The notes: a model not told the origin generated them from the sequence alone. A stretch of 64,000 nt of DNA from Candidatus Krumholzibacteriota bacterium (GCA_963727455.1 CAVSGG010000009.1:224001-288000), one strand, 5' to 3'. Positions 4,960 to 46,723 are shown, counted from the stretch's first letter. Numbers and translations are program-made.

Positions 4960-5338
4960 GATCCGCCGTCTGTGCGCCCAGATCCCCGCACCGCGCCAGC
5001 ATTTGGTCAGATACTACGGCTGGTACTCGCACCGGGCCCGAGGGGCAAGAGCCAACCCCCAGGACGCGCCGATCGCCAGGGCACCCTCCACTGCGCGCAG
5101 CCGCAGCTGGGCACGCCTGCTGCGCAGGATCTTCGAGCTGGACCCCATGCTCTGCCCGCAGTGCGGGGGAACCATGAAGATCGTGTCGGTGATCGACGAA
5201 GCAGCCGTGGTGGACCGGATTCTCAGACACCTGGCACGGATCGGCGGCAACGACCCGCACGAGGGAACCGCGCAACGAGCTCCGCCAAGAGCATGAACCC
5301 CTACCAGTACCCTGAGCCTCCCGACGAATGCGCAGGGC
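4960..5338 (+). mobile_element. IS91/ISCR-like remnant 1 (transposase C-terminus plus start of the 3' region; ori deleted)
   Basis: Encodes QIPAPRQHLVRYYGWYS...SWARLLRRIFELDPMLCPQCGG; near-identical to 20925-21303. Confidence 0.85.
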
Positions 5339-6875
5339 CACTCCTATGGACTCGAGTCCATGCTTCGCGCGGCTGATCGGCGTTTCGCTGGCTTTCTCCC
5401 CGACGTCTATCGTACACTTGGCGCACGCGACGCACTGCCGTCGTGCGGTTACCGTACTTCCCCCGGTTCCGGAGGTATGGGATGCGATCGCGCCTCCTCC
5501 CTGTCGTATTGGTATTCCTAGCACTCTCACTTGGTTGCGGCGACAGCAGCACGAGCCCCGACACGACCGGCGTCCAAGCGCTGAGGTTCGAGACTTTCCA
5601 ACGCGCGAGTCTGGAATTCGGCCAGCTCGACATGACCTCCGGAGACGCCAACCGGGGCACCGTGACCAACCAGATCGGCCTCAGTTCGCCGAGCGGCGCG
5701 GGTTCCGGGTTGTTTTACCTCCCCGATCCGGGTAACAACCGCGTGCTGGGGTACACCTCATTTCCCACGACCAACGGCGCCGCCGCGGACTTCGTCGTCG
5801 GTCAGACCGGTTTCGGATTCAATCAGTCAGGGACATCGATCCAGCGCTTCCGGCGACCGACGGCCTGCGCGGTGTCCGACGGTAAGCTGTTCGTCACCGA
5901 CTATTTCAACAACCGCGTGTTGATCTGGAACTCGCTCCCCACGGGCCCCGATTCGGCCGACGTCGTGGTCGGGCAGCCCGATTTCACGACAGCAAGCTCC
6001 GGGCTCTCGTCGACGAAACTGGGCGGTCCGATCGATCTCGCGGTCGCGGGAGGAAAGCTGTTCGTGGCCGAGTACGGCAACCACCGGGTCCTGATCTGGA
6101 ACACCATCCCCACGACCAACGGCGCGCCCGCGGACGTCGTCGTAGGCAAGCCCGACTTCACGTCCGGGGGCGCCGGACCCACCGCCTCGATCACGGGCAA
6201 CGTGTCAGCAGTATGGAGCGACGGAAGGCGGCTCGTGGTGACAGACGAATACAATGCCCGCGTCCTGATCTGGAATTCGATTCCAAGCACGAACGGCGCT
6301 CCGGCCGACATCGTGCTGGGAGCGTCCGATTTCGAGAGCGAAGGTTGCTGCCGAGGAGGCTTCGACAACGCATTTGACCACCCGAGCGGACTGGCCTCGG
6401 ACGGCTACAGCCTGTTCGTCGCCGACACCAGCGAGAATCGGGTGATGATCTACACGCCGTTTCCCCGCAAGAACAACGAGGCGGCGAGCCGGATCCTGGG
6501 GCAGGGCGCGTTCCACCGCGCCAGCCGGAACGACGACAACCAGGATGGGGTCGCCGACGCCCAACCGTCCGACCGGACGATGTACCTCCCGACGGGGCTC
6601 AGCATCGTCGGCCGGCGGCTGCTGGTGGCCGATCAGTACAACAATCGGGTCCTGGTCTTCGACAGCAAGTAGCGGTGGTATCTGCGAGGCGGGAAAGCTC
6701 GGCGCGCGAGCGGTCCCGCTGTCTCCTGCGCTGCGCGCACGAGGCGACCCAGCGCCGGCTGCCCGAGAAGTCAGCGCTTGGTATGCTCTGTGTCCAAAAA
6801 CGTCACAGTGGACGAGGTTACCGAAATCTCTGATGGTCCCAGCGTCCCGTAGATGGTGTTCTCCGTCGGACGGAT
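5339..6875 (+). repeat. About 1.54 kb direct duplication of 46580-48118
   Basis: Near-identical sequence covering the upstream region, the NHL gene and the 3' tail of the next minus-strand gene. Confidence 0.95.
5482..6672 (+). CDS. NHL-repeat beta-propeller lipoprotein, copy 1
   Basis: Lipobox LSLGC; repeated LFVxDxxNNRVLIWNxxPTxNGAPADVVVGQPDF units; GGAGG RBS. Confidence 0.85.
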   Translation: MRSRLLPVVLVFLALSLGCGDSSTSPDTTGVQALRFETFQRASLEFGQLDMTSGDANRGTVTNQIGLSSPSGAGSGLFYLPDPGNNRVLGYTSFPTTNGAAADFVVGQTGFGFNQSGTSIQRFRRPTACAVSDGKLFVTDYFNNRVLIWNSLPTGPDSADVVVGQPDFTTASSGLSSTKLGGPIDLAVAGGKLFVAEYGNHRVLIWNTIPTTNGAPADVVVGKPDFTSGGAGPTASITGNVSAVWSDGRRLVVTDEYNARVLIWNSIPSTNGAPADIVLGASDFESEGCCRGGFDNAFDHPSGLASDGYSLFVADTSENRVMIYTPFPRKNNEAASRILGQGAFHRASRNDDNQDGVADAQPSDRTMYLPTGLSIVGRRLLVADQYNNRVLVFDSK

Positions 6876-7002
6876 GACGAATGCGTGATGCAGCTTGGAA
6901 TCGCCAAGGGCCATACTATAGTCTCTCGCGAGGCGTGGAGACTCCCGAGGATCGACCGTTGGAGTGTCGGTTCTCTATTGTCAGGTCGAGGGGAAGGACG
7001 GT

Positions 7003-8229
7003 ATGAAGTACTTCATGGTCGGGATGCTGGCTCTTGATCTTCTGCTGTTCATCACTTTCCCCTGTCGAGCCCAAGTCATCCCGGATGACCCCCTGTACCC
7101 CGAGCAGATCTACTACGCGCACAATGCAGGTCGGACGACGTTGATTCTGGACTCAAGCCGGCCCAAGTCGCGTGAGGTCGAGGTCGATCCGAAGGTGTTG
7201 TTGGACCTGCCATCGGCCTGGCAATACACCACGGGTAGTAGAGCGGTCGTCGTGGCTGTCCTCGATGATGGCTTCTTCTATTGGCACGAGGACATCCAGG
7301 ACAATCTCTGGCAGAACCCGGGCGAGGTCGGGGTGGACAGCTCAGGATATCCAAGACAGACCAACGGCGTGGATGACGACGGCAATGGGCATGTAGACGA
7401 CGTACTCGGATGGGACTTCGCGTTCGAAGATCCCGATCCGGATCCCTATGTTTTCGACGGGATGGACAGGAACCGAGTGCAGCCGTATTCCCACTCGATC
7501 CCGGCGCTTGGGATCATTGGAGCCAAAGGAAACAACCACCGGGGAATCGCCGGCATCAACTGGGACGTGTCACTGATGCTACTGAAGATTGGCGCCCAGG
7601 GGGTCCGATACAAGGCCCCCGATACCGAGCGAGCCGCCAATGCTGCGAGGGCGATTCGCTATGCGGTGGACAATGGAGCCCGAATCATCAACTGGAGTGG
7701 CTACGTTTCCATCGATGATCCAGCGCGGTTGGAGCCTCTGAAGGAATCCATCGATTACGCACGGGATCACAACGTACTGCTCGTCTTGGCGGCCGGCAAT
7801 GACGGGGTGGATGTGGACAGCGACGAGAACTGCTTGTATCCCCAGTGCTTTGACCTCGACAACATGATACGTGTGGCCGAACTGGGTTATGACGGCACAC
7901 TGATCCACTACAAGACCGGAAGTCGTTGGCGTGGTTCGAACTATGGTGTCAAGCGGGTCGAGATCGGAGCGGTCGCCGAAAATCTGACCACGGCGTTCAG
8001 AGACGGAGTAAGTACCTATGCCACTCGGGGGGGAACCTCCAATGCAGCGCCGGTGGTCGCAGGAGTTGCTGCGCTCGTACTCTCGATTCGACCCGATCTG
8101 ACGCCACCGGCTCTGATCCAACTGCTGATGGACACCGCCACCCCGATCGATGCACTCCGAGGCAAGGTCCGGTCGGGCGGTTCCGTCAACGCCTACAAGG
8201 CGGTTCATCGCGCCGTCCATGGTGGATAG
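7003..8229 (+). CDS. Secreted S8 (subtilisin-like) serine peptidase
   Basis: Signal peptide; VAVLDDG, HSIPALGIIGA, LAAGN and GTSNAAPVVAG motifs; NGVDDDGNGHVDDVLGWDF insert. Confidence 0.85.
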   Translation: MKYFMVGMLALDLLLFITFPCRAQVIPDDPLYPEQIYYAHNAGRTTLILDSSRPKSREVEVDPKVLLDLPSAWQYTTGSRAVVVAVLDDGFFYWHEDIQDNLWQNPGEVGVDSSGYPRQTNGVDDDGNGHVDDVLGWDFAFEDPDPDPYVFDGMDRNRVQPYSHSIPALGIIGAKGNNHRGIAGINWDVSLMLLKIGAQGVRYKAPDTERAANAARAIRYAVDNGARIINWSGYVSIDDPARLEPLKESIDYARDHNVLLVLAAGNDGVDVDSDENCLYPQCFDLDNMIRVAELGYDGTLIHYKTGSRWRGSNYGVKRVEIGAVAENLTTAFRDGVSTYATRGGTSNAAPVVAGVAALVLSIRPDLTPPALIQLLMDTATPIDALRGKVRSGGSVNAYKAVHRAVHGG

Positions 8230-8500
8230 ACGCCAACAGTCGGAGTCCTGAACAGCTGAGCATGGCACCGCGTCACCTTCTTGGGAGGAGTGGGGCGTAC
8301 GGCCAGCGCGCAAGCACGCGATTGGCCCTTCAGAACGGACGGAGATGGTGCGGACCGAGCCGCGGGCGGTTCCGTGGCGCGTCCCGTAGTCCAGCTACCC
8401 GGTCTTCCGTTCCCAGGCGACGGCAGGGATGTGGATGGTGGAGGCCGGGGCTCGGATCGAGGGCAGAGAAACGATCTCTGGGGAAAAGTGCATCCGGGCA

Positions 8501-8529
8501 TTGATCTCCGAACCGGTTCGGAGTAAGCT
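8501..8529 (+). promoter_or_regulatory. Sigma70-like promoter with a palindromic BlaI-type operator
   Basis: TTGATC-17bp-TAAGCT with the perfect palindrome CTCCGAACCGGTTCGGAG (8506-8523) filling the spacer. Confidence 0.7.
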
Positions 8530-8558
8530 GTCGGGGGGTTGACTCTAGGAGGGAGACC

Positions 8559-8933
8559 ATGCGGCCACTGCCGTCCGATGGTGAGCTGGCGATCCTGCGG
8601 GTTTTGTGGGCTCGAGGACCGAGCACCGTGGGAGAAGCCCACGATCGGATCCGTCGGAACCACTCGGTGGAATACAACACCGTGGGCAAGCTCTTGCAGA
8701 TCATGACGGAAAAGGGACTGGTGAGGGTGGACGATCGCAAGAGGGCACATGTGTTTTCGGCGGCGGTGAAGGAAGAAGACGTGCAGAACCGTCTTGCGGC
8801 GGACCTAGCGAGGCGCGCTTTCGGAGGCTCGGCCGCACAACTGGCCCTACGAGCCTTGACCGGGGAGCGTTGCACGGGGGCGGAGGCAGCTGAACTACGA
8901 CGCCTACTAGACGAACTAGAGAGGGAGGACTAG
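8559..8933 (+). CDS. BlaI/MecI/CopY family repressor
   Basis: ELAILRVLWARGPSTV...YNTVGKLLQIMTEKGLV...FGGS; adjacent to an M56 gene. Confidence 0.9.
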   Translation: MRPLPSDGELAILRVLWARGPSTVGEAHDRIRRNHSVEYNTVGKLLQIMTEKGLVRVDDRKRAHVFSAAVKEEDVQNRLAADLARRAFGGSAAQLALRALTGERCTGAEAAELRRLLDELERED

Positions 8934-8937
8934 CGGC

Positions 8938-10173
8938 ATGCCCGGGTCGATGGCGCTGGTGACAAACATTCTCGGCTGGGGCGTTCTGCAGCTCGGTTGG
9001 CAGACTGCAGTGGTGGCGGGCTTGGTGTGGGTGCTGCGTCGAGCCGGTAGGAAGGCGCCCCCCCATTGGCGATACAGGATAGCGTGGTTGTCGCTGGTCT
9101 CACTTCCGATCCTCCCGGCGGCTACCGGCGCCGTCCTACTGTCAGGGGACGCCCCCGCGGCGATCCGCACAGGGGGTGTAGCGAGTAGTCCTGTGGTGAG
9201 GTCCGTGATGCCGGTCGCCGACTCCCTCATACAGCGCACGACCAATGTAGTCCCTTGGCTCGGGCTGGCATGGTGGGTGGTGATCGTGGCGGCCTGTGTT
9301 TGCTTTATCGTCGGAGTCTGTTCGGCGCGGCGAGTCGTGCGACGAAGCACGGCGCCGCCAGAAGAGCTCCAAGCCATGTACTTGGAGGTCGCGGCACGCC
9401 TGAATGTTCGGGCGAGACTGCGAGTGTCCGCGGAGGTGCAGGTCCCTACGATTCTCGGGGTTATTCGCCCGACAGTGCTCGTTCCTGAAGGTTTGGTGCA
9501 TGCGCCGCGAAGCGAGCTGTCGCCCTTACTCGCACATGAACTGGCCCACGTCCAGCGGGGTGATCATCGAGACAACGCCCTTCAGTTCCTTGTCCGCGCC
9601 ATCCTGGTCTTCCACCCGTTGACGCGGTGGATCTGTCGTCAGATCGATCTGGACCGCGAGTGTGCGTGTGATGATCTCGCAGCCGTTGCAGTGGAGGACC
9701 GTCGACGCTACGCTGCGTCGCTCGCCAGGCTCGAACTGAGTCTCGGGCGCACGGGAGTAGAATTGGCGCTCGGCGGTGACGGTGCACCTATCGTAGAGCG
9801 AGTTCGTCGTATGGTCGCACCACCCCATCGCCTTGGCGCAGTCGGTTGGGTCCGAATGGCCGCTATCGCGATCCTGGGTGGGACCATTCTAATCTTCGGG
9901 GCGTGCACGGGGGTGGTGACCGGCGCGGAGGCCACGCGCGACGTGATGCATCGGGTCACAGCCATCCACACTGTGCGAGCATCCGACCCTGCCGGTGTGT
10001 TCACCCTGTCGATTCGCCGCGGGCTGGCCGTGGCCGCCACCATCGATGGACGGTCTGTCAGATTCGTCCAGCATCGTGACAGCGTCACGCTAGTTCCTGA
10101 CCCCCGGTTGCTGCCCTTCACTGTTCGGGTAGGGCCAAATGGGGGAATTCACTGGTCCGCCCGAAAACCCTAA
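8938..10173 (+). CDS. BlaR1-like M56 metallopeptidase sensor
   Basis: Transmembrane N-terminus, LAHELAHVQRGD, FHP, RECACDDLA. Confidence 0.9.
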   Translation: MPGSMALVTNILGWGVLQLGWQTAVVAGLVWVLRRAGRKAPPHWRYRIAWLSLVSLPILPAATGAVLLSGDAPAAIRTGGVASSPVVRSVMPVADSLIQRTTNVVPWLGLAWWVVIVAACVCFIVGVCSARRVVRRSTAPPEELQAMYLEVAARLNVRARLRVSAEVQVPTILGVIRPTVLVPEGLVHAPRSELSPLLAHELAHVQRGDHRDNALQFLVRAILVFHPLTRWICRQIDLDRECACDDLAAVAVEDRRRYAASLARLELSLGRTGVELALGGDGAPIVERVRRMVAPPHRLGAVGWVRMAAIAILGGTILIFGACTGVVTGAEATRDVMHRVTAIHTVRASDPAGVFTLSIRRGLAVAATIDGRSVRFVQHRDSVTLVPDPRLLPFTVRVGPNGGIHWSARKP

Positions 10174-10225
10174 CAAGTCGGGAGTGAACCGTGGAATTCC
10201 GTAGCTGGAATCAAGGTGACGCGAT

Positions 10226-10243
10226 CTCCGAATCGCTTCGGAG
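10226..10243. promoter_or_regulatory. Second BlaI-type operator
   Basis: CTCCGAATCGCTTCGGAG has the same 7-bp arms as 8506-8523. Confidence 0.65.
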
Positions 10244-10274
10244 TTCTGGGATGAGCAACCCATGGAGGTCGAAG

Positions 10275-11741
10275 ATGTACAGACAGCATCCAGCCCTCGT
10301 CTCCCTATTGGTCTTGGTGATCACGTTCCCATGCGCCTTTCCACCGGGTGCCGGGGCGGGTGCGACAGCGGAGCCGGTGAAGATGAGCGGGTCTCGAACG
10401 GCGCCGGAGTGGACCCTTCGAGTGCTTCCCATCGACCATCTGGTTCAACTCGCGGGCCGGAGGCCGCTCCTCTGGCCGGACTTCCGGCCGGAGGTTGTGC
10501 CGACGCTCTACAACGTGAGGGGTCACGGCATGGTGTACGCGAACCCGGCCACTCCGTTGCCAGGCGAGTTCGCTCCCGTTCCCGGTTTGGTGGGCGGGTG
10601 GACCGACGAATCACCCTTCGCGTTGCTGGAGGGTCGGCAGTTTGCCATGAGTTCGATTCTTCCGAACGAGTCAGTCGCGAGCAACGCTGGACTCGCGATC
10701 CACGAGATGTTCCATCAGCACGAGGCGAGAGTTCGGTCGGAGGGGAGGATGTTCGGTGGGGCGGAAGATCCTCCCGGAATCCGGCTGTATCCCGCCTTTG
10801 ACGCGGTCAACATGACGCTGCTCGGTCGCGAGGGAGACCTGATCGCGCGGGCGCTGGCCACCACGTCTCTCGCGACGGTCCGCAACCTGGCTCGGGAATT
10901 CCTGGCCGTGCGCGCGACTCGCAGGTCTCGGCTTTCCGAGTCTGTGGTCGTCTATGAGGACATGACGGAGTTGAACGAGGGTTTGGCCGAGTACGTTAGG
11001 CTCCGGGCTCTGCAGCGGTGGGCCTCTGAGGCGCAAGCGCCATGGAACACTCAGGCGGAGCAGGAGCGCAGAAGCTTGTTGGCCCGGCAAGACAAGCTTC
11101 ACCGATTGAGCGCCCCACAGCTTCGACGCGTCTTCTACGTCACCGGTTCTGGTATCGGCTTGCTTCTGGACCGACTTGACCCGGGCTGGGCAGTGCGTTT
11201 GATTCGCGAAAACCGCACGCTGGTAGGGCAATTGAACCATGTGGTCGGCGGCCGAGCCGACACCAGAGTGTCTCCCAGTGCCGATCCTGGGGTGGCTGAG
11301 TATCTCCGGTCGCTGGAGGGCCGACGGGTGGTTGAAGCCGACAGTCTTCTTGGAGGCGAGGGGCTGGTCGTGGAGATCGTGTGGCAGGACGGCTCCGGCT
11401 TCCACGTCTGCGGTCTGGATCCTCTGAACGCCAAACCAGTCGGTGATGGGCGCGTACTGCATCGCTTTCTGCGGCTGTGCCACGACGACGAGCTGGTAGC
11501 GACGATTGGAGAGTCATCCGTGGAGGGCCTCGATGGGCACTTCATCGCTGTGCCTCTAGGGATTGACTCCCCTGACTCGTTTGTGACTGTGGACGGAGTT
11601 CCGCTGAACGAGTGGATCGACGCAGGCGCGCCCCCAGCCAAGAAACTGGCTGTCGATCACGGGGGAGTGCACATCGAGAGTCCAGTGGAACGTGTGACCT
11701 ACGCCGACTCCCACTTGAAAGCCTGGCTACGAGCGCCGTGA
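10275..11741 (+). CDS. Secreted putative gluzincin-like metalloprotease
   Basis: GGAGG RBS, signal peptide, IHEMFHQH and a downstream NEGLAEY motif. Confidence 0.55.
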   Translation: MYRQHPALVSLLVLVITFPCAFPPGAGAGATAEPVKMSGSRTAPEWTLRVLPIDHLVQLAGRRPLLWPDFRPEVVPTLYNVRGHGMVYANPATPLPGEFAPVPGLVGGWTDESPFALLEGRQFAMSSILPNESVASNAGLAIHEMFHQHEARVRSEGRMFGGAEDPPGIRLYPAFDAVNMTLLGREGDLIARALATTSLATVRNLAREFLAVRATRRSRLSESVVVYEDMTELNEGLAEYVRLRALQRWASEAQAPWNTQAEQERRSLLARQDKLHRLSAPQLRRVFYVTGSGIGLLLDRLDPGWAVRLIRENRTLVGQLNHVVGGRADTRVSPSADPGVAEYLRSLEGRRVVEADSLLGGEGLVVEIVWQDGSGFHVCGLDPLNAKPVGDGRVLHRFLRLCHDDELVATIGESSVEGLDGHFIAVPLGIDSPDSFVTVDGVPLNEWIDAGAPPAKKLAVDHGGVHIESPVERVTYADSHLKAWLRAP

Positions 11742-11988
11742 ACGTGGGATGGCTCGCAGTGATGACACGACGACCAGTGCGTGGGCCGCTCGAACACGGC
11801 TGCGAGTGGGCGTGTAGGGAGTGAGAGGGGCTGTTCTCGGGTCATACGGTCCAGTACTTGGTAAGGCGTGTTCCGAGGCATGAATTGGGACCCCTAAGCC
11901 GGTGGGTGTCAGCACGAGACGGGGTCGAGTCGAGTCGTCCAATCAGGGGCGGGTGGGCCACCGTACCCCCCAGCATGGGAGAGAGAGC

Positions 11989-12693
11989 ATGGAGCAACGC
12001 GTCCGACGCCTCGAGAAATCACTGAGGCGAATGCAGTGGTTGGCCACTTCGACGGGGCTATTGGTGGTAATGCTAGTCGCGTATGGTGCGAAACAGAAGG
12101 CCGAACCCCAGGTCCTCCGGGCACGAGGCTTAGTTCTCGTAGATGATCAGGGGCGGGAGCGCATTCTGATCGGCGCACCCATACCATCGGCCAGTCATCG
12201 AGTCCGCACTGACGATGCTCGTGTAAGAGAAGCCTGGGCCGGCCGATACCCGGATCCCGACGAGTACATGAAGTACTACGCCGGGTATGATAACAGTACG
12301 AATGGGATGCTCATTCTCGATGAGAACGGCTTTGACCGGGTCGCGGTCGGCAGCCCGACCCCAGACCCAAACATCGGGCGACGCTTGGGACCCTCCACTG
12401 GCATTGTGATAAACGACGCACAAGGGTTCGAGCGATCCGGATACGGACTCCTCACGGTGAACGGATCGGACCGAGTGGTCCTTGGTCTTGATTCGAATCG
12501 AGGTACGGAAGGGTTAGTACTCTCGCTTCACGACGAGAGTGGCTACGTTGGAATGGACGTCGCCAGTGGGTCCGATCGGATCTTCGTGGGAAGTAAGAAT
12601 GGTCAGAAGCCTGACGGAGAGCCTAGCTCGGAGCTGGCGATCACACGTGGAGACAGCATCCTCTACTCGACTCAAGCGCACGGGTCCAAGTGA
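11989..12693 (+). CDS. Hypothetical membrane-anchored protein
   Basis: N-terminal coiled coil plus TM helix, then repeated (L/I)xDxxGxER beta motifs. Confidence 0.55.
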   Translation: MEQRVRRLEKSLRRMQWLATSTGLLVVMLVAYGAKQKAEPQVLRARGLVLVDDQGRERILIGAPIPSASHRVRTDDARVREAWAGRYPDPDEYMKYYAGYDNSTNGMLILDENGFDRVAVGSPTPDPNIGRRLGPSTGIVINDAQGFERSGYGLLTVNGSDRVVLGLDSNRGTEGLVLSLHDESGYVGMDVASGSDRIFVGSKNGQKPDGEPSSELAITRGDSILYSTQAHGSK

Positions 12694-12771
12694 ACGTGAC
12701 CCGCCCGCTGCGTAGAGGGAATGGCGATCGGGCCACCATCACTCTGGAGAGGCCTGTCCCTTGTCCCCACC

Positions 12772-37651: not shown

Positions 37652-37970
37652 CTTGGCACGGATCGGCGGCAACGACCCGCACGAGGGGACGGCGCAACGA
37701 GCTCCGCCTAGAGCATGAACCCCTACCTGATCGCTCAGCCTCCCGACGAATGCGTAACAGCACGAGCGTCGGGGGTACGGTGTGCCCAAGGATAGGTGGA
37801 AGCCGCTCAGGTGGGCGCATGTCGAGCGAACAGAGTTGCGGTAGGGTGAGTCGGGGATCGACGATCAATCCTCATGGTGATCATCGCACCGAGAACAGCA
37901 TGCGAGGGACGCACGTTTCGAAGGTCAGTGCTCGCTCGGCGTCCAAAGCGCCGTATACAATCCACTATCC
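37652..37970 (+). mobile_element. IS91/ISCR-like remnant 6
   Basis: Last transposase codons plus the 3' region; CTATCC|GTAA. Confidence 0.9.
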
Positions 37971-38225
37971 GTAATTCCTGGGCTGGCGCTGAGGTGTACC
38001 TGATCGGCTCGACTTGCCCCCCGGGCACGAGCGGCGCTATGATCTGAAAAGTTCCCCCGTATCCAGGAGAATTCGATGGTCCGATTCCCGCGCAATGGGA
38101 TCAGGGCTCGGCCATTTTTTGCGATCAGCCAGTTCCAGTGGATCACTTCCTCTGGAGCGTCCTCTTCGAAGGTGACCATCGTGGCAAGACTCCGCCGGTC
38201 CGCGTGCAAGGTCTCTGAGGCGACC

Positions 38226-38921: not shown

Positions 38922-38927
38922 TTTAAG

Positions 38928-39608: not shown

Positions 39609-39625
39609 CTCCGGAAGCGCTAGGA

Positions 39626-40588
39626 GCGAGGCGGTCGATGACCCCCGGGCGCAGGTGGGCACCATCGCGTCGATCCAGACCTTCGGCAGCTACGCCGCGA
39701 ACTTCCATCCGCACGTCCACGCGCTGATCACCGAGGGAGCGTTCCACCTACCGCGCCGCGGCGATCCATGGTTTGAGCGCGTCGAGTGGTGGGATCAGAA
39801 GACGCTGACTGAGCTGTTTCGACGGCTGGTGCTTAAAGAGCTCCGGCGCGCGAAGCGCCTGCGCGAGGAGACCGAGGCCATGCTCCTGTCATGGCAGCAC
39901 TCGGGCTTCGGGGTCCATGCCGGCGAGCCGGTGCTGCCCGATCACACCGAGCGCCAGGAGCACCTCGCGCGGTACATCACCCGCGCGCCGATCCGGCTCG
40001 ACGCGATCACCCCGCTCGACGCCAGCATTTGGTCAGATACTACGGCTGGTACTCGCACCGGGCTCGAGGGGCAAGAGCCAACCCCCAGGACGCGACGATC
40101 GCCAGGGCACCCTCCACTGCGCGCAGCCGCAGCTGGGCACGCCTGCTGCGCAGGATCTTCGAGCTGGACCCCATGCTCTGCCCGCAGTGCGGGGTAATGA
40201 TGAAGATCGTGTCGGTGATCGACGAAGCAGCGGTGGTGGACCGGATTCTCAGACACTTGGCACGGATCGGCGGCAACGACCCGCACGAGGGGACGGCGCA
40301 ACGAGCTCCGCCTAGAGCATGAACCCCTACCTGATCTCTCAGCCTCCCGACGAATGCGTAACAGCACGAGCGTCGGGGGTACGGTGTGCCCAAGGATAGG
40401 TGGAAGCCGCTCAGGTGGGCGCATGTCGGGCGAACAGAGTTGCGGTAGGGTGAGTCGGGGATCGACGATCAATCCTCATGGTGATCATCGCACCGAGAAC
40501 ACAGCGCAAAGAGCTCCCGTCTCGAAGGTCGTTGCTCGCTTTTCGGCTAAAGCGCCGTATTCAATCCACTATCCGTAATCCACTATCC
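39626..40588 (+). mobile_element. IS91/ISCR-like remnant 7 (longest; HUH motif; internal deletion; 14-bp duplicated end)
   Basis: IQTFGSYAANFHPHVHALITEG and LARYITRAP; about 110-bp deletion near 40022; (AATCCACTATCCGT)x2. Confidence 0.92.
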
Positions 40589-41394
40589 GTCGATTCCCCA
40601 GGAACTCCCGGAGCAATCGGTGTCCAATCTCGGCGTCGAAACCGACGCTCCATGGAGCTACGTGGAGGATCCAGACTTCCATAGCAAAGTTGTGAGGGTG
40701 ACGATGTCGAATCCGGCATCGAGCCTATGGGTGATTCTGTCGGCCCGCGTGCTACGCCGCCCCGTACAAGGCGCCGGAGCCGGCGACGCTCGATGCCGCG
40801 CAGCGCCGCCTCTTTCTGCGCGAGGAGGGGCTGGTCAGTCTCAGCCCACGCATCCAGGCGCTGGCCGACAGCATCGCGGGCTCCAACCGCACTCGCTTCG
40901 ACTATGTCCGATCGACCATGAGTTACGACAAGCAGACCCCTGGTTGGGGGCACGGCGACTCGGAGCGGGCCTGCGATGTCCGCCGCGGGAACTGCACCGA
41001 CTTCCACTCGCTTTTCCTCTCGCTCTCGCGGGCCGAAGGCGTGCCGGCCAGATTCGAGATGGGCTTCCCCATGTCGCTCGCTGGCGAGAGCAATCATGCC
41101 GGGGGCTACCACTGCTGGGCCTGGTTCTACGACGACAGCGCGCAGGTCTGGGTCCCGGTCGACATCTCCGAGGCCAAGCTCGAGCCAAAGCGTTCCGACT
41201 ACCTCTTTGGACACCTGGACGCCGAGAGGGTGAGCTTCTCCCGCGGTCGCGATGTGCAGCTGCCAGGCATGAAAGGGCGCCCCCTCAACTACCTTCCCAG
41301 CAGCGCCTACGTGGAAGTGGACGGGAAGCCGCTCGACACGGTCGTGCGCACGCTCAGTTACTCGGTGGACGGGGCGGTGGGGGCCAAAGACTGA
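40589..41394 (+). pseudogene. Transglutaminase-like protein, 5'-truncated at the ori junction and frameshifted
   Basis: GNCTDFHSLF, YHCWAWFY and WVPVD triad motifs; upstream IPQELPEQSVSNL begins at the junction in another frame. Confidence 0.75.
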
Positions 41395-41622
41395 TCGTCG
41401 AAGGCAGGGAGAAGATCAGTTCAGGCCGACGGCGGTCCTGGCCCAGCTAGCCGGACCGCCCGTCACACCTCACGGCTTCGCGCGACCTATTCTCTACGAG
41501 CCCCGCGGTGACGCCTCGAGTCGCACGCGTCTCGCGTTGAGGTCCCTAGGGATAGGAACTTCGATTTCGGATTTCCTTCTCATTTCCGGAGGAAAGGCCG
41601 TCCCCAAGAACTGGAGAGACTC

Positions 41623-44052
41623 ATGAAGCGCCCCCTCTTTGCAATTTCTTGCGCCGTGTTCGTAGTTCTGGCCCTGCCAGCAGCGCCCAGCCAGGCCTCG
41701 TGGCAGCAGTATGGCAATCCGGTGAGCTCGGTAATCAACGAGCAACAGCATTCGAGAGCGATCCCGGACGGCTCGGGCGGAGCATTCGTCGTCTGGGAGG
41801 ACGATCGCATCAGTTCGTCCGAGACGGACATCTATGCCCAGCGCCTCGATGCGGAAGGCAATCCTCTCTGGGTGGTCAATGGAGTAGCCGTGTGTACGGC
41901 CAGCAACGTTCAGATCGAACCGCAGCTGGTCAGCGCCGGTCCGGGTGGCGTAATCATCTCCTGGACTGACTATCGGCTTGGTTCCTCGAATGCCAATATC
42001 TACGCGCAGCGGCTCAGTACCGGTGGCATTCCACAGTGGACATCCAACGGCATCCTCGTCTGCGGAGCGGCCAATGACCAGTACGGTTCCCAGGTTGTTG
42101 CCGATGGAAAGGGAGGAGCCATCTTCACCTGGATGGATAAGAGGGCAGACACGCTTGGAGATATCTACGCTCAGCGACTCTCGGCAGCGGGTACGGGACA
42201 ATGGACCAGTAATGGAGTTGCAGTGTGTAGCGAAGGCTCGCAACAGTCAGACGTTCGTGCCGATAGCGATGGCATGGGCGGGATCGTAATGGCCTGGTAC
42301 GACTTTCGCTTTCCGGATGCGGACATCTTCGTCAACCGTCTCGATGACAGCGGATCGGTACTCTGGGGGAACAACGGAAGGGACATCAGCGGCATCATCG
42401 GAACCAGTGAGTTGAATCCAGAGATCGTTGGAGACGACGCCGGTGGCGCGGCGGTGATCTGGGAGGATGCGCGTAGCGGCGATCCGGATCTGTACGCCAC
42501 AATCCTGAACGCATCTGGCATCTCGACGACGACACCGTTTGCGGTGGCGGCAGAGGTTGATCGCCAGGACGACGCCGAGATGATTCGCGACCCCGCCACG
42601 GGAGATCTGATCGTGGTCTTCGTCGACCGGCGATCCACCGCGACCAACGACAACGACATCTATGCACAACGTTTCGATACGACCGGGAAGATGAAGTGGG
42701 ATTACAATGGAGTCGCGCTTTGCACTGCGACGTTCAACCAATTCAGCCCGAATCTGGCACTGGACGACGATGGCGGAGTTGTGTTTGCCTGGGAAGACTT
42801 TCGGAATTCACCCGCAGGGGGCATCTACGCGCAGCGGCTCTCGACCGAGGGCACACGCATGTGGCCGAACAACGGCATCCAGTTGTCCAAGCTACTGCTC
42901 TGCCGGGATCCTCAGGTTGTCGCAGACGGCGCGGGCGGAGCGTTCATCGCCTGGATGGACCACTTTACCGGTGACGGAGACATTCTGGCCCAGCGCGTCG
43001 AACTCGCCCATGGTTACTGGGGACACCCCGAACCGGTAATTTCGAGCGTCGCGGATGTTCCCGGCGATCAAGGCGGATTCGTGCGCGTGGACTGGCTACC
43101 GAGCGACCACGACGCGGCGGGTTTGACGGAGATCAGTCACTACTCGGTATGGCGCGCGACCGATGCCATCGCCAAGACTGCTGGTGGCGGCTTGACGCCC
43201 CAGGTCACCCTGGACGAAGTGGGCGCTGAATTCGAAGGCCCCGCCTACCGCCTCTCCGCGGCCGGCGACTTTTATTGGGAGTACATGGGGGAGCAGAGTG
43301 CCCACGCCTTCCCGGGTTACAGCATGGCAGTGGCGACCGAATCGGACATGACCGGCACCAATCCGGCTTTGCACCATTTCCAGGTCGTTGCCCATACCTA
43401 CTCGCAGTACGTGGTGTTCCCGTCGATTGAGGCAAGCGGTGCTTCGGTGGACGACCTGGCTCCCGCCTCGGCCAAGACCCTGGCCGCGGTGCGCGCTGGC
43501 GAGACCAACGTCGATCTCGACTGGAGCCCCAGTGGGGCGAATGAGCCCGACTTCCTCGAGTACGAGGTGTACCGCAGCAGCTCGCCCGCGGTCGCGATTG
43601 ACCCGGGCAACTTCCTGTTCGTGACAGCAGACACAATGGCCGTCGACACCGGCGCCGCTGCAACTTCGCCCTGGTACTACGTCGTTGTGGCGAAGGACGT
43701 ACACGGGAACCTCAGTGACGCGTCCAACGAAGCCATGGTCGACGTGGTAACCGGCGTGGGGAACTTTCAGCCCACCTCGCTGGGCCTCTTGAGCAACTGG
43801 CCGAACCCCTTTGGGTCGAGTGGGACGCAGCTTCGCCTGCGCTTGCCCCGCGCGGGTGAGGCCACTCTGGAGGTTTTCGATGTGCGCGGCCGCCGTGTGC
43901 GTGAGATCCGGCAACGATTCGGCGAAGGGGTGAATCGTCTCGAGTTCGACGGGCGCGACGCCCATGGGAGCGAACTGCCCAGCGGAGTGTATCTGGTTCG
44001 CCTGAAGTACGGCGGCGAATCGATGAGCCGGAAGATCATCATGCAGCGCTAG
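41623..44052 (+). CDS. Secreted repeat (propeller-like) protein with a C-terminal FlgD-Ig domain
   Basis: Signal peptide; DGxGGAxxxWxDxR...DIYAQR repeats; NWPNPF...FDVRGRRVR...SGVYLVRL tail. Confidence 0.8.
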   Translation: MKRPLFAISCAVFVVLALPAAPSQASWQQYGNPVSSVINEQQHSRAIPDGSGGAFVVWEDDRISSSETDIYAQRLDAEGNPLWVVNGVAVCTASNVQIEPQLVSAGPGGVIISWTDYRLGSSNANIYAQRLSTGGIPQWTSNGILVCGAANDQYGSQVVADGKGGAIFTWMDKRADTLGDIYAQRLSAAGTGQWTSNGVAVCSEGSQQSDVRADSDGMGGIVMAWYDFRFPDADIFVNRLDDSGSVLWGNNGRDISGIIGTSELNPEIVGDDAGGAAVIWEDARSGDPDLYATILNASGISTTTPFAVAAEVDRQDDAEMIRDPATGDLIVVFVDRRSTATNDNDIYAQRFDTTGKMKWDYNGVALCTATFNQFSPNLALDDDGGVVFAWEDFRNSPAGGIYAQRLSTEGTRMWPNNGIQLSKLLLCRDPQVVADGAGGAFIAWMDHFTGDGDILAQRVELAHGYWGHPEPVISSVADVPGDQGGFVRVDWLPSDHDAAGLTEISHYSVWRATDAIAKTAGGGLTPQVTLDEVGAEFEGPAYRLSAAGDFYWEYMGEQSAHAFPGYSMAVATESDMTGTNPALHHFQVVAHTYSQYVVFPSIEASGASVDDLAPASAKTLAAVRAGETNVDLDWSPSGANEPDFLEYEVYRSSSPAVAIDPGNFLFVTADTMAVDTGAAATSPWYYVVVAKDVHGNLSDASNEAMVDVVTGVGNFQPTSLGLLSNWPNPFGSSGTQLRLRLPRAGEATLEVFDVRGRRVREIRQRFGEGVNRLEFDGRDAHGSELPSGVYLVRLKYGGESMSRKIIMQR

Positions 44053-44107
44053 CTGCGGGCGGCATTACCCAGCCACGACGCAAGCGATCGCCGGGCCCAT
44101 CGTTCGC

Positions 44108-44500
44108 TCAAGCCGACGGCGGACCCGTCTTGTCGATGAGCTTCATCATGGCATGCGTGTCGGGAGCGATCAGCTCCGCGATGCGGGCGGAATTCACGTC
44201 GGCCACGATCATCTGACCCACCTCGCTGTGCACGTCGCTGAAGATGCCGTGCTTCATCATCTTCTGGGTCTGGTAGTGGTTGTCTTCGGTGGGGCTTACG
44301 TAGTGTACCGAGACCGCCCTGTAGCGGTGGATCAAAAACACGTGAATCAGAGTCATCAGGCGTTTCTTGCGCATCTCTTCGGCGAAAGTGTTTTGTATAC
44401 GAATGGAGAAAATGCTGCGTTCCTTGCGGTCCTTGATGTCGGCGAAGACCACGTTGGCCAGCTTGTCACCCTGACCGTCCTTGAGAACCAGCTCCAGAAG
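44108..44500 (-). pseudogene. C-terminal domain fragment of a long-form isocitrate lyase (ICL2 type)
   Basis: QNTFAEEMRKKRLMTLIHVFLIHRY...HYVSPTEDNHYQTQKMMKHGIF...EVGQMIVADVN resembles the ICL2 C-terminus; the 5' part is replaced by remnant 8. Confidence 0.7.
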
Positions 44501-44504
44501 ATAA

Positions 44505-44887
44505 CATCTGGTCGAGGAGGTGCTCAGCCCGGTTGCCCACCGCCACGTGGTTTTCACGGTACCCAAGGTGATCCGTGGATTGTTCGAGCGGGAGCGCCGA
44601 CTGTTGTCGATCCTACCGCGCTGCGCGCACCAGGCGACCCAGCGCCTGCTGTGCGAGGCGGTCGATGACCCCCGGGCGCAGGTGGGCGCCATCGCGTCGA
44701 TCCAGACCTTCGGCAGCTACGCCGCGAACTTCCATCCGCACGTCCACGCGAGCTGTTCCGAGGTCTGGTGCTTAAAGAACCCCGGCGCGCGAAGCGCCTG
44801 CGCTAGGAGACCACTCGACGCCAAGCAGGTGCGGGTTCGGACACCGATTTATCCCAGCACCGGCCAACGTGATCTCGAACTCGATGT
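44505..44887 (+). mobile_element. IS91/ISCR-like remnant 8 (most N-terminal part, with internal deletions)
   Basis: PVAHRHVVFTVPK...IQTFGSYAANFHPHVHA, followed by deleted pieces matching remnants 2 and 7. Confidence 0.85.
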
Positions 44888-45205
44888 GACTGCTGATGGC
44901 GAACTTTCTAGTCAGCCCCCTGCAAGTGTACGAAGGGGCATTGAGCATAGAGCGATCGTGATCAGTCTCGGACTGGTCCACGACAGGCCGATGGCGAGAT
45001 CGAGGGCCCTTGGAATTTCTATCTGAGGGAACATCCGCAAATTGGAAACGGTAAAAGGAAAGTGGCAGCGTCGTCGAGAAAGTGGCTCATATTCACTTTC
45101 TTCCTTGCACTTTGCCAAGGCAACATGGAAGCGGAGTAGTCCATACGGACGCGAGCTGCCAGGTGTGAGCAGGATCTCGATGCAAACGACGGGCCGCGGC
45201 TTAGC

Positions 45206-46336
45206 CTACTGGTAGTCGAACTGTGTGCTCGAGATCCACTCGTACTCGCCCTTGATGTCGGCCGAGCCCAGGTCCGCGAAGGTGAAGTTCGGATCCGTGT
45301 AGGGATGGCCGTCCTCGTCCACGAAGGTGTAGTGCTCGACGGACTCCCAAACCGAGTAGACCACGGTCTTACCCTCGATGCCGGTCATCGTCCGCGTCAC
45401 CGTGACGGAGTTCTGCTCCTGGACGGTGACCGTGGACTGAAATGCCTCGGAAAGCGACCCGCCCAGCTTGGCGCCGACACCGGAGTACGACGCGCCGAGC
45501 TCGCCGTTGATCGCCCGCGTGAAGGTGTACGAGTCCTGGTAGTCGGTCCCCTGGGTGCGCGTATACGAGACCGAGAATGACGCGCCTGGATCGACGCGGA
45601 TACTCTTGAGCGTGCTCCCGTCGCTCAAGAGCGGCACGCGCACCCAGAACCGCTCACGCATGATATTCACCGGATTGGTGAGCAGCGGGCAACCGGTGGC
45701 CGCCACGTAGTAGGCGGCGCGACGAGTCTTTTCCCCGAAGGCCGGATCCTTGGCCACCGTGACGGAGCCGTTGAAAAGAGCCCCATGGATATGCAGGTCT
45801 GGATATTGAATGAAATCGAAGAAAGCTTCGGTCCTGTCCGGGTTGATCGGCTGCGCGAGCACGCTGCCATCGTTGATGAACTGCACCCGTTTCGGGAACG
45901 GATCCGGAGGGATGAAAGAACTCCCGTAGGGGGTCGGCGACCTGAGATCCACGACGCCGTTCTCGAAAACGAGAGCCGAGTTGTGGGCGGTGTGGTCGTA
46001 ATACGACCCAGGAGCGTCGCCGTACCACGCGTTGCCGCTCAAGTACTTTTGATACTGCGTCTGGACATCGATGTCCCAGGTGAATACGCCGGCCGTCCAT
46101 GTGGGTATGAAGTCCACTTTCTTGCCCTCGATGGGAACGATGTCCGAGTAGGTGGACGAGGTATCGGGCAGGATCTCGTTCGGCGTCGAGGGGCGCGGGA
46201 TCGGCGGAAACGAGTCAGGTGGTTTCGAGCCGTTTGTGTTGGTCGTCTGATCAGGAGCGGTTGACGATGAGCACGAGGAAAGCGCAAGGGCCGCGACAAG
46301 CCACATGGCGAGGACTGAGTAGAACAGGGGCTTCAT
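45206..46336 (-). CDS. Lipoprotein with a putative Bin/Tpp (Toxin_10, aerolysin-like) pore-forming C-terminal domain
   Basis: Lipobox LSSC; RERFW, Ser/Thr-rich strands, amphipathic hairpin INGELGASYSGVGAKLGGSL, and WESVEHYTFVDEDG. Confidence 0.55.
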   Translation of the reverse strand: MKPLFYSVLAMWLVAALALSSCSSSTAPDQTTNTNGSKPPDSFPPIPRPSTPNEILPDTSSTYSDIVPIEGKKVDFIPTWTAGVFTWDIDVQTQYQKYLSGNAWYGDAPGSYYDHTAHNSALVFENGVVDLRSPTPYGSSFIPPDPFPKRVQFINDGSVLAQPINPDRTEAFFDFIQYPDLHIHGALFNGSVTVAKDPAFGEKTRRAAYYVAATGCPLLTNPVNIMRERFWVRVPLLSDGSTLKSIRVDPGASFSVSYTRTQGTDYQDSYTFTRAINGELGASYSGVGAKLGGSLSEAFQSTVTVQEQNSVTVTRTMTGIEGKTVVYSVWESVEHYTFVDEDGHPYTDPNFTFADLGSADIKGEYEWISSTQFDYQ

Positions 46337-46519
46337 TGCGACCTCCGCGGATCGGGTCTGGTGGGTGGCTCGCCTACGATGGGGGGAAATTTGCTGATCG
46401 CCGATTCGGGGGGAATGACTTTCATGATAACATCAAATAGATCGGGATAGCCCGTGAATTCTGGTGCCGGCGATGAGGTGTACCTGATTCACGCCGAAAT
46501 CAGTGTCCGAGGGAGAGAA

Positions 46520-46577
46520 CCGTTTCGCAGCTCGGTGCTCGCTTGTCGGCCGAAGCGCCCCATACAATCCGCTATCC
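46520..46577 (+). mobile_element. IS91/ISCR-like remnant 9 (diverged terminus)
   Basis: CGTTTCG...TGCTCGCTTGTCGGC.GAAGCGCC..ATACAATCCGCTATCC|GTCA. Confidence 0.75.
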
Positions 46578-46723
46578 GTCACTCCTGCTGACTCGAGTCC
46601 ATGCTTCCGCGCGGCTGATCGGCGTTTCGCTAGCTTTCTCCCCGACGTCTAGCGTACACTTGGCGCACGCGACGCACTGCCGTCGTGCGGTTACCGTACT
46701 TCCCCCGGTTCCGGAGGTATGGG

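What the first reader, a model, noticed from the sequence alone, without database searches (positions are those of the whole stretch)
4960..46581. Candidate HUH (IS91/ISCR-like) oriIS-delimited gene-capture array
Seen: nine remnants of one element, all on the + strand (4960, 20657, 31410, 33988, 35437, 37652, 39626, 44505, 46520). Seven finish at the same terminus ATACAATCC(A/G)CTATCC (21541, 31939, 34084, 36064, 37970, 40588, 46577) while their left ends vary. No full transposase is present. Consecutive termini delimit modules of about 10.4, 2.1, 2.0, 1.9, 2.6 and 6 kb, each made of unrelated cargo, a truncated element and the terminus. Known: IS91-family elements transpose by rolling circle from oriIS, make no target duplication and can mobilise adjacent DNA. 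Inference: the strict co-orientation and head-to-tail modularity look like an integron-like or Helitron-like cassette array assembled by an HUH transposase acting in trans, not a random IS graveyard.
Basis: partly seen in the sequence, partly recalled or inferred. Interest (0 to 1): 0.9.

Follow-up and report, generated by a model that had tools for sequence, protein, structure and literature searches.

The report
Head-to-tail array of IS91 transposon ends
A 50-kb gene island in an uncultured Krumholzibacteriota bacterium is threaded with same-direction, front-truncated copies of one rolling-circle (IS91-family) jumping gene, which appear to have landed next to each other's ends and sometimes dragged neighbouring genes along; this is a natural example of a known kind of gene capture, not a new system.

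Summary
I also found three tandem mini-termini, one older diverged terminus at 2641 and two 40-nt internal fragments.

The element is a true IS91-family member (NF033538 198 bits against a cut-off of 125; Pfam Y2_Tnp plus Zn_Tnp_IS91). The shared terminus is its oriIS end: two subterminal hairpins and an invariant ...ATACAATCCACTATCCGT.

The array lies in a ~50-kb island (window 2557-52513) between an aldehyde dehydrogenase gene and a CBS gene. These two genes are adjacent in two congeners.

A third congener (G001) has an array at the same locus. It has 12 co-oriented termini, none elsewhere in that genome, and mostly different cargo.

Unit boundaries coincide with termini. A 2.09-kb unit (a cut DUF4386 gene, a transposase-less remnant and a terminus) was copied and inserted exactly after another CTATCCGT. 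Mini-units of 14-40 nt sit flush after termini. Read-through copies carry 218-250 nt of upstream flank.

Best reading: one-ended rolling-circle transposition with insertion at or near resident oriIS ends, followed by decay, invasion by other IS elements and recombination.

It is not an integron: no integrase is present. Truncated right-end fragments, read-through capture and chained ΔISCR2-cargo units are all in print. I rate it a new variant of a known kind, of moderate interest.

The parts
2557..52513 (.). The whole island, absent from two congeners in which the aldehyde-dehydrogenase stop codon and the CBS-gene stop codon are 4 nt (G004) or 152 nt (G002) apart
2560..2675 (+). T0': old, diverged 3' end of the element (variant terminus ATACAATTCACTCTCC at 2641-2656, then GT), starting just after the aldehyde-dehydrogenase stop and followed by a TCCGT x3 stutter; conserved in contig C8 and in G001
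2695..4758 (-). 687-aa HNH-domain gene in the first module; homologs at 68-81% stand at other places in congeners that have no listed element match
4907..5341 (+). Copy 1: element left end (about 55 nt) joined to element positions 982-1363; no terminus; the same left junction is present in G001
5339..6880 (+). B1: 97.9% copy of 46580-48122 (NHL-repeat gene plus a 40-nt transposase fragment); it starts at the base that follows CTATCCGT in B2
20657..21513 (+). Remnant of element positions 714-1570 (99.4% to the full copy), ending in the terminus
21514..21541 (+). 28-nt mini-unit (last 28 nt of the element) flush after CTATCCGT
31410..31901 (+). Remnant of element positions 1079-1570 (100% to the full copies in C8 and G001), ending in the terminus
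31902..31939 (+). 38-nt mini-unit flush after CTATCCGT
33988..34084 (+). Remnant of element positions 1474-1570 with terminus; shared with G001 together with the next module (99.5%)
35437..36064 (+). Remnant of element positions 943-1570 with terminus; the same breakpoint is in G001
37654..37970 (+). Remnant of element positions 1254-1570 (89%, variant second hairpin) with terminus
39626..40574 (+). Remnant of element positions 510-908 plus 1006-1570 (internal deletion) with terminus (1 mismatch)
40575..40588 (+). 14-nt mini-unit flush after CTATCCGT
44503..44887 (+). Remnant pieces of element positions 360-607, 695-757 and 896-972, without terminus; its left edge abuts the last ~130 codons of a gene whose paralog on contig C1 is at least 493 aa
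46520..46579 (+). T7: diverged (81%) 58-nt 3' end with terminus ATACAATCCGCTATCC, then GT
46580..48122 (+). B2: NHL-repeat gene unit flush after T7; its last part runs on into sequence shared with G001
12762..13824 (+). IS30-like element; an inverted copy lies at 32849-33911 (99.3%)
23368..24881 (+). rve-type IS; 98.7% to a copy in the G001 array
25602..27977 (-). IS66-family element; 100% identical over 2376 nt to a copy in the G001 array

Best explanation
The island is a chromosomal hot spot that an IS91-family (Y2 HUH) insertion sequence has filled with products of one-ended rolling-circle transposition.

Proposed mechanism:
1. Events start at the oriIS end (two subterminal hairpins, then ...GCGCCGTATACAATCCACTATCCGT) and run leftwards through the element.
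2. They stop at variable points. Early stops give 5'-truncated copies from 14 nt to 1.28 kb. Late stops, past the left end, carry upstream DNA along.
3. The incoming strand is preferentially joined at or near a resident oriIS cleavage site. New units therefore stack head to tail in one orientation.
4. Remnants without a transposase gene still work as origins when the enzyme is supplied in trans.
5. Afterwards the array decays through microhomology deletions, is invaded by other IS elements, and is reshuffled and exchanged between related species by homologous recombination in the copies and flanks.

Shown: family membership; the constant end; locus restriction; co-orientation; variable content between relatives; one unit copied with a cut host gene and placed flush at a terminus; flush mini-units; read-through copies.

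Inferred: the direction and chemistry of the reaction (taken from IS91 and IS801); the preference for resident termini as targets; supply of the transposase in trans; and that most cargo arrived by capture.
For: 1. Family. NF033538 scores 198 bits against a cut-off of 125. Pfam Y2_Tnp and Zn_Tnp_IS91 both match the 433-aa ORF.

2. Asymmetry of the pieces. 11 of the 16 element pieces in the window end at the terminus and 1 keeps the left end. In G001, 12 of 13 end at the terminus and 3 keep the left end. About 13 different 5' breakpoints occur over the two arrays.

3. Junction dinucleotide. 24 of 25 termini are followed by GT: 13 of 13 in G000 and 11 of 12 in G001.

4. Locus restriction. Of the 13 terminus hits in the bin, 10 are in the window, 2 are at the orthologous locus on C8 and 1 is on C2. 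All 15 listed G001 matches lie in C9:475989-512929 on one strand.

5. A unit moved as a whole. G001 g1rc 47389-49476 equals 65891-67983 (98.9%, 2094 nt). The first copy starts exactly after CTATCCGT of the preceding terminus. The second has its left end inside an intact DUF4386 gene (Pfam E 3.4e-50, profile positions 2-210 of 210), so it is the donor context.

6. Flush mini-units. These are 28, 38 and 14 nt in the window and 40 nt in G001. The 40-nt one differs from its neighbour at 6 positions, so it is not a slippage product.

7. Read-through. Three G001 copies carry 218-250 nt of the HNH-upstream flank with two different left ends.

8. Propagation of a non-autonomous copy. Four G001 copies share one internal deletion junction (element positions 1287-1388, AGG microhomology) but have different 5' ends.

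9. Population variation. A metagenome contig lacks window 40575-45205 and has 142 other nt there. The left breakpoint lies at the terminus. Two Logan contigs show the same join.

10. Published behaviour of relatives, from passages I read. IS91 termination fails in 1-10% of events, and the target tetranucleotide abuts oriIS with T at position 2 (PMC13181058). IS801 right-end fragments of 229, 360 and 679 nt make up 26% of events, and read-through of 290-1431 nt makes up 0.7% (PMC3189936).
Against: - The left breakpoints show no conserved tetranucleotide, unlike the IS801 fragments.
- Not all copied units sit flush after a terminus. In G001 the copies starting at 41849 and 50878 lie 4.3 and 1.4 kb from the previous terminus.
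- Only three unit boundaries could be tested against a second copy or an alternative arrangement. For the other modules, capture of the cargo is not shown.
- Gene conversion between copies could spread the shared internal deletion.
- Two window remnants have lost the terminus, and many carry internal deletions, so decay contributes to the pattern.
- The B1/B2 duplication has its constant end on the flank side of a terminus. The simple leftward model does not explain this.
- In another genus (G005, contig C28) at least 7 remnants lie on one strand and 2 on the other, so co-orientation is not absolute.
- No full-length copy can be assigned to the same cell as the window's array.
- Co-orientation could also come from strand-biased insertion into single-stranded DNA at replication forks. 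That is known for other HUH elements (recalled, not tested here).
Confidence: 0.65

Rival explanations
1. IS graveyard plus recombination. Full-length copies inserted repeatedly into a permissive island. Each then lost its 5' part by ordinary deletion. Unequal crossing-over between co-oriented copies multiplied and reshuffled them. The cargo came in by other routes.
For: - Three other IS families sit in the same region.
- Remnants carry microhomology deletions.
- A gene fragment abuts one remnant.
- The flanks become more similar between lineages towards the array, which points to recombination. Window against G001 on the right: 77, then 84, then 93%. C8 against C9 on the left: 84, then 95%.
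- The IS801 paper's abstract says that most IS801 fragments in finished genomes look like products of reorganisation (PMC3189936).
Against: - Random deletion should remove 3' ends as often as 5' ends. Instead, 23 of 29 pieces over both arrays keep the terminus and 4 keep the left end.
- Homologous recombination cannot make junctions that fall exactly after CTATCCGT. There are five flush units in the two arrays, plus the B2 start and the contig variant.
- Neither genome has copies scattered outside the locus.
Confidence: 0.2
2. Integron-like cassette platform. Each stretch from one terminus to the next is a cassette. The HUH enzyme excises it as a circle, with the terminus serving as both origin and terminator, and re-inserts it at another terminus.
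For: - Unit copy A in G001 runs exactly from one terminus to the next.
- B2 and B1 start at the base after a terminus.
- The population variant breaks at a terminus.
- In the window, the first gene after 7 of 8 termini points away from the terminus (my reading of the ORF lists).
Against: - The donor of unit A begins inside a gene, not at a terminus.
- In G001 only 5 of 10 first genes point away from the terminus.
- No circle junction was seen. The one 'goes back' joint has 63 nt of generic remnant on one side, so it is ambiguous.
- No tyrosine recombinase is on the contig.
- Remnant identity to the full copy (81-100%) shows no gradient along the array.
Confidence: 0.1
3. Assembly artefact: the contig was stitched through near-identical repeats, so the module order is not real.
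For: - Repeats reach 860 nt at 99-100% identity.
- The bin mixes two related lineages.
- No read-level data were available; only contigs of other runs.
Against: - A separately assembled congener has an array at the same locus and shares window 33072-35766 at 99.5% across a terminus.
- Metagenome contigs cover the last bases of T5, the M6 cargo and the remnant at 39626 (99.8%). They also bridge T4 into the M5 cargo (98.4%) and the 376-aa gene through T7 into B2 (99.7%).
- Logan contigs bridge T6 into the M7 cargo (two runs) and T7 into B2 (two runs).
Confidence: 0.04

Closest known systems
IS801 and IS91 one-ended transposition (IS91 family; PMC3189936 and PMC13181058, passages read)
   Same: - Y2 HUH transposase with a zinc-binding N-terminus.
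- Two different ends, with the constant right (oriIS) end downstream of the gene carrying subterminal palindromes.
- Right-end fragments of variable length.
- Occasional read-through that carries upstream DNA, including pieces of genes.
- Mobilisation of defective copies in trans.
   Different: - Here the copies do not scatter: all of them lie in one locus in each genome searched.
- Several units sit exactly after a resident terminus.
- The left breakpoints have no GAAC-like tetranucleotide.
- What follows the end is GT plus any two bases, not GTTC or CTTG.
- The host is an uncultured phylum, and nothing has been tested at the bench.
ISCR2-linked chains such as ΔISCR2-hp-tet(X5.3)-hp-hp-ΔISCR2-IS26-...-tet(X3)-hp-hp-ISCR2 (PMC7722449, passages read)
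   Same: Chains of cargo, each followed by an intact or truncated IS91-like copy. They are interrupted by other IS elements and are attributed to rolling-circle transposition plus recombination.
   Different: - Those chains have 2-3 copies on resistance plasmids or chromosomes of clinical or farm bacteria.
- Here there are 10-12 termini in a fixed chromosomal site shared by related species, with no resistance genes recognised.
- The protein is not an ISCR clade Ia member (184 bits against a cut-off of 925).
Integron cassette arrays
   Same: A co-oriented series of short conserved sites separating unrelated genes at one chromosomal place; content varies between relatives.
   Different: - There is no integron integrase.
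- The sites are the ends of a transposon and carry pieces of its gene.
- Unit sizes run from 14 nt to more than 10 kb.
- There is no polarity of age along the array.
Helitrons (eukaryotic rolling-circle transposons; PMC4778049, passages read)
   Same: HUH-based rolling-circle movement, gene-fragment capture when an end is missed, and non-autonomous copies that outnumber autonomous ones.
   Different: - This element has no helicase domain and is bacterial.
- Here capture occurs at the end where termination fails upstream of the gene. In the Helraiser experiments the transduced DNA lay beyond the 3' end.

Membership tests
IS91 family insertion sequences | Transposase of the Y2 HUH type recognised by curated family models | tested here: met
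   NF033538 scores 198.1 bits against a cut-off of 125. PF04986 scores 94.6 bits and PF14319 79.9 bits on the C8 copy. HPHVH and YYGWY stretches are visible in the ORF; that these are the catalytic motifs is recalled, not tested.
IS91 family insertion sequences | Two functionally different ends, with the right end (oriIS) downstream of tnpA carrying subterminal palindromes | tested here: met
   Two predicted hairpins precede an invariant last ~26 nt. The variant copies change both stem arms. The left end, defined by C2 against C8 homology, is a different sequence. Function was not tested.
IS91 family insertion sequences | Conserved short target sequence abutting oriIS (GTTC or CTTG type, T at position 2) | tested here: inconclusive
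   24 of 25 termini are followed by GT, and 3 of the 10 in the window by GTTC. Flush units leave the GT in place, so GT may belong to the element end.
IS91 family insertion sequences | No target-site duplication | tested here: inconclusive
   No duplication is seen at the flush 2.09-kb unit, apart from the ambiguous GT. No empty site for a single full-length insertion was available.
IS91 family insertion sequences | One-ended transposition: constant oriIS end, variable other end, adjacent DNA carried along | tested here: met
   About 13 different 5' breakpoints. Read-through of 218-250 nt. A 1.84-kb cargo with a cut DUF4386 gene was copied together with its remnant. This is inferred from products, not observed as events.
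ISCR elements | Membership of an ISCR transposase clade | tested here: not met
   NF052416 (ISCR clade Ia) scores 184 bits against a cut-off of 925. Other ISCR clades were not tested.
ISCR elements | No recognisable terIS | tested here: not met
   A left end is conserved between the C2 and C8 copies.
Integrons | Integron integrase (tyrosine recombinase) next to the array | tested here: not met
   PF00589 finds 3 matches in the bin, on C10 (two) and C13, and none on C9.
Integrons | attC sites bounding each cassette | not tested
   No attC model was run. The repeated sites are transposon 3' ends that carry transposase-gene remnants.
Helitrons | Rep fused to a Pif1-type helicase | tested here: not met
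   The full-length 458-aa ORF of G001, scanned against Pfam, carries only the zinc-binding and Y2 domains. The 433-aa C8 ORF matches both families.

The most novel reading that the evidence does not exclude
The oriIS end of this IS91 subfamily is both the origin and the preferred landing site of its own transposase. A single chromosomal locus then works as a self-extending gene-capture platform: an HUH-driven analogue of an integron. Its units can be moved by the enzyme in trans, and the whole platform is swapped between species by recombination in the flanks.
Probability: 0.3. Interest if true: 0.7.

Novelty: new variant of a known kind. Interest (0 to 1): 0.5.

Why it matters
A Helitron paper I read in passages (PMC4778049) calls the evidence that IS91-like elements transduce neighbouring genes circumstantial. 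Most examples come from resistance plasmids.

Here two related environmental genomes give a natural before-and-after pair. A transposase-less origin remnant, together with 1.84 kb of upstream DNA that includes a cut host gene, was copied and placed exactly at another origin end.

If the preference for resident ends holds, it explains three things: how rolling-circle elements build ordered, one-directional gene arrays; why such arrays stay at one site; and why ΔISCR chains look the way they do. It also gives a simple assay to test the idea.

If the preference does not hold, this remains a tidy but ordinary case of IS91-family debris in a flexible genomic island.

Tried and rejected
- Tetranucleotide at the breakpoints. 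I looked for a conserved tetranucleotide at the 5' breakpoints of remnants and at the left ends of read-through units, as reported for IS801. None was visible.
- CTATCC in the aldehyde-dehydrogenase gene. CCGCTATCCG lies about 30 nt before its stop, in the congeners with the empty site too, and could be an ancestral target. The island does not begin flush with it, and I did not test its frequency. Dropped.
- Orientation of the first gene after each terminus. 7 of 8 point away from the terminus in the window but only 5 of 10 in G001 (ORF lists). This gives no support for an outward promoter or integron-like polarity.
- Age gradient. Identity of remnants to the full copy shows no order along the array.
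- Circle junctions in public runs. Only contigs were on hand. The 'goes back 2604' joint in X2 has 63 nt of generic remnant on its shorter side, so it cannot separate a circle, a tandem copy or another neighbour. Parts of the stretch without cover in those runs say nothing.
- Origin of the B1/B2 duplication. I tried models of Campbell-type integration, terminus-primed template switching and deletion after flush insertion. None fits all three junctions. Left unexplained.
- Cargo paralogy. Beyond T9SS-type C-terminal domains and duplicated units, no shared family links the cargo genes.
- Literature. Full-text searches found no paper describing IS91-family insertion exactly at a resident oriIS, or a chromosomal array of this length. 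The library lacks most subscription journals, so this is not proof of absence.
- Not run: structure prediction, complex prediction and the large protein searches. They would not have changed the reading.


Full report
**1. The observation**

The terminus motif occurs 10 times in the window, with up to 2 mismatches. All hits are on the + strand, against 0.02 expected from shuffles.

In coordinates of the 1570-nt reference copy (C8:498685-500254), the remnants are:
- 4960-5341: positions 982-1363, no terminus.
- 20657-21513: 714-1570.
- 31410-31901: 1079-1570, 100% identical.
- 33988-34084: 1474-1570.
- 35437-36064: 943-1570.
- 37654-37970: 1254-1570, 89%.
- 39626-40574: 510-908 plus 1006-1570.
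- 44503-44887: three pieces, no terminus.
- 46520-46577: 1513-1570, 81%.

I add the following:
- Three tandem mini-copies of the extreme end: 28 nt at 21514, 38 nt at 31902 and 14 nt at 40575.
- An old, diverged end at about 2560-2656.
- Two 40-nt internal fragments at 6728 and 47970.

**2. What the repeat is**

ORF fragments in the remnants match Pfam Y2_Tnp. The bin holds one intact gene, at C8:498701-500002 (433 aa). It matches Y2_Tnp and Zn_Tnp_IS91 and passes the curated NCBIfam model for IS91-family transposases (198 bits, cut-off 125). It falls far below the ISCR clade Ia cut-off (184 against 925).

The constant terminus lies downstream of the gene, where the IS91 family has its oriIS (PMC13181058, passages read). 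Its last ~70 nt fold into two hairpins followed by an invariant ...GCGCCGTATACAATCCACTATCCGT. Diverged copies change both arms of the stems. A related element in another genus (50-60% protein identity) keeps a similar end.

24 of 25 termini in the two genomes are followed by GT. The left end, defined by where the C2 and C8 copies begin to align, lies about 55 nt left of my position 1.

**3. Where it sits**

In congeners G004 and G002 the aldehyde-dehydrogenase stop and the CBS-gene stop are 4 nt and 152 nt apart. Window 2557-52513 is therefore a ~50-kb island, and the old diverged end T0' lies just after the dehydrogenase stop.

Congener G001 (about 3.6 Mb, 9 contigs, 96% complete) has an island at the same place. 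Its array of 12 terminus hits is all on one strand and includes one full-length and one near-full copy. All 15 matches listed for G001 lie inside this one stretch.

In the window's own bin, 10 of the 13 terminus hits are in the window, 2 are at the end of C8 and 1 is on C2.

The bin is a mixture. C8:260690-498684 is collinear with C9:12-228961 at about 85% identity, and C2 is collinear with C6 at about 87%. The C8 copy is therefore the same locus in a co-binned relative, not a second site. Whether the cell carrying the window's array has a transposase gene is unknown.

Record titles of the closest named relatives read Candidatus Krumholzibacteriota.

**4. Content and variation**

The cargo is a mix:
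- Secreted proteins with T9SS-type C-terminal domains.
- S8 and M56 peptidases.
- NHL and TPR repeat proteins.
- MarR next to DUF2339.
- Many ORFs without a family.
- An IS30-like pair, an rve-type IS and an IS66.

The modules between 21.5 and 34 kb have lower G+C (0.53-0.58 against 0.62).

Against G001, only three things are shared: the first module, window 33072-35766 (99.5%, spanning a terminus and the next module) and the other IS elements. The rest of the cargo has no close match in four congeners.

The flanks are about 93% identical next to the array and fall to 84% and 77% further out. The C8/C9 pair rises from 84% to 95% towards the array. The youngest remnants, the IS66 and a 380-aa cargo protein are 99-100% identical between the two species. 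The locus is therefore exchanged or refreshed faster than its surroundings.

A metagenome contig from elsewhere carries the T5-M6 part at 99.8%. It then goes from the M6 terminus through 142 unrelated nt straight to window 45206, so it lacks window 40575-45205. Two Logan contigs show the same join.

**5. Evidence on mechanism**

(a) Asymmetry. In the window, 11 of 16 pieces end at the terminus and 1 keeps the left end. In G001, 12 of 13 end at the terminus and 3 keep the left end. About 13 different 5' breakpoints occur.

(b) A moved unit. In G001, g1rc 47389-49476 equals 65891-67983 (98.9%). Both copies end in the terminus. The first begins at the base after CTATCCGT of the previous terminus. 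The second begins inside an intact DUF4386 gene, which is cut short in the first. So a remnant of positions 1326-1570, which encodes no enzyme, was copied together with 1.84 kb of upstream DNA and joined exactly at another terminus.

(c) Flush mini-units of 14-40 nt. The 40-nt unit in G001 differs from its neighbour at 6 positions, so it is not a slippage duplicate. Short TCCGT or ATCCGT stutters follow T0' and one metagenome copy.

(d) Read-through. Three G001 copies carry 218 or 250 nt of the sequence upstream of the element's left end. Two different left ends are seen.

(e) A propagated non-autonomous parent. Four G001 copies share the identical internal deletion junction (positions 1287-1388) but have different 5' ends.

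These are the product classes shown experimentally for IS801: right-end fragments of 229, 360 and 679 nt make up 26% of events, and read-through of 290-1431 nt makes up 0.7% (PMC3189936). For IS91, termination fails in 1-10% of events (PMC13181058).

**6. What does not fit, or is not shown**

- The left breakpoints lack a common tetranucleotide.
- Two copied units in G001 are not flush with a terminus.
- The B duplication (5339-6880 = 46580-48122, 97.9%) begins at the base after T7's CTATCCGT. It extends rightwards into sequence that G001 shares, so the constant end is on the flank side. I could not derive this from the leftward model.
- Internal deletions and a cut gene next to the remnant at 44503 show decay.
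- For most modules I cannot tell whether the cargo came with the remnant.
- Co-orientation is strong but not absolute in another genus: at least 7 against 2. It could also reflect strand-biased insertion or multiplication by unequal crossing-over.

**7. Assembly**

No reads were available. The following support parts of the order:
- The independent G001 assembly shares one stretch that spans a terminus.
- Metagenome contigs cover the end of T5, the M6 cargo and the remnant at 39626. They also bridge T4 into the M5 cargo, and the 376-aa gene through T7 into B2.
- Logan contigs bridge T6 into M7 and T7 into B2.

The full order of all modules is not independently confirmed.

**8. Comparison and verdict**

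The element is a member of the IS91 family. It is not an ISCR clade Ia element, an integron (no tyrosine recombinase on the contig) or a Helitron.

Chains of cargo followed by intact or truncated ISCR2 are described on resistance elements (PMC7722449). Earlier notes of this scan report a cluster of seven same-direction ISCR-like origin ends in another genome, and an ISCR-like capture in a third. Another note calls the C8 copy an ordinary IS91 element beside a resident HNH gene. My finding agrees with that: HNH homologs stand elsewhere in congeners that have no listed element match.

Three things go beyond the known cases:
- Every copy in two genomes is confined to one conserved chromosomal site.
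- The array is long, with 10-12 termini.
- Several junctions fall exactly after a resident terminus.

Together these point to resident oriIS ends as preferred landing sites. My four full-text searches found no description of that, in a library that lacks most subscription journals.

I rate it a new variant of a known kind, interest 0.5. Confidence is 0.65 in the one-ended-transposition-with-chaining reading. I give 0.3 to the stronger reading that the locus is a self-extending capture platform.

Noticed in passing
G000 contigs C8:260690-498684 vs C9:12-228961; C2 vs C6: The bin holds two collinear versions of about 230 kb at ~85% identity, and of about 40 kb at ~87%. It therefore mixes two related lineages. 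Any 'genome-wide' count in it needs care.
   Followed up: partly
window 924-2556: The aldehyde-dehydrogenase Pfam match is split over two overlapping ORFs in different frames: 924-2093 (profile positions 10-139) and 1534-2556 (profile positions 152-449). This is either a frameshift or an assembly indel. The C8 version also looks split in the ORF list.
   Followed up: no
window 12762-13824 and 32849-33911: Two IS30-like copies in inverted orientation (99.3%) bracket about 19 kb of the array. They could invert it or move it as a composite.
   Followed up: no
window 25602-27977 and 34125-35267; G001 array: An IS66 element (2376 nt) and a 380-aa cargo protein are 100% identical between two species whose flanks are about 93% identical. 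This points to very recent exchange.
   Followed up: partly
window 2657-2675; L061 1907-1915: Short stutters of the extreme terminus (TCCGT three times; ATCCGT twice) directly follow two termini, as if nick-and-rejoin events left tiny duplicates.
   Followed up: partly
G001 array (L015:6255-7274, L015:1773-2375, L014:7700-9401): Cargo in the congener's array includes an AIPR abortive-infection-type protein, a pretoxin-HINT fragment and an ECF sigma factor next to a Ser/Thr kinase.
   Followed up: no
window 35968-36513; G001 g1rc 37459-39417: An ORF start inside the last ~100 nt of the element reads outwards into the next module, in both genomes (33 shared N-terminal residues). Whether the end supplies an outward promoter or start, as ISCR1 does, is untested.
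   Followed up: no
window 44108-44496 vs C1:13317-13705: A ~130-codon 3' fragment of a gene whose paralog on C1 is at least 493 aa abuts the remnant at 44503. It has 89.7% DNA identity to the paralog.
   Followed up: partly
G005 contig C28 (L055-L057): A 42.5-kb contig of another genus holds at least 9 remnants of several subfamilies of a related IS91-like transposase. Most are on one strand.
   Followed up: partly
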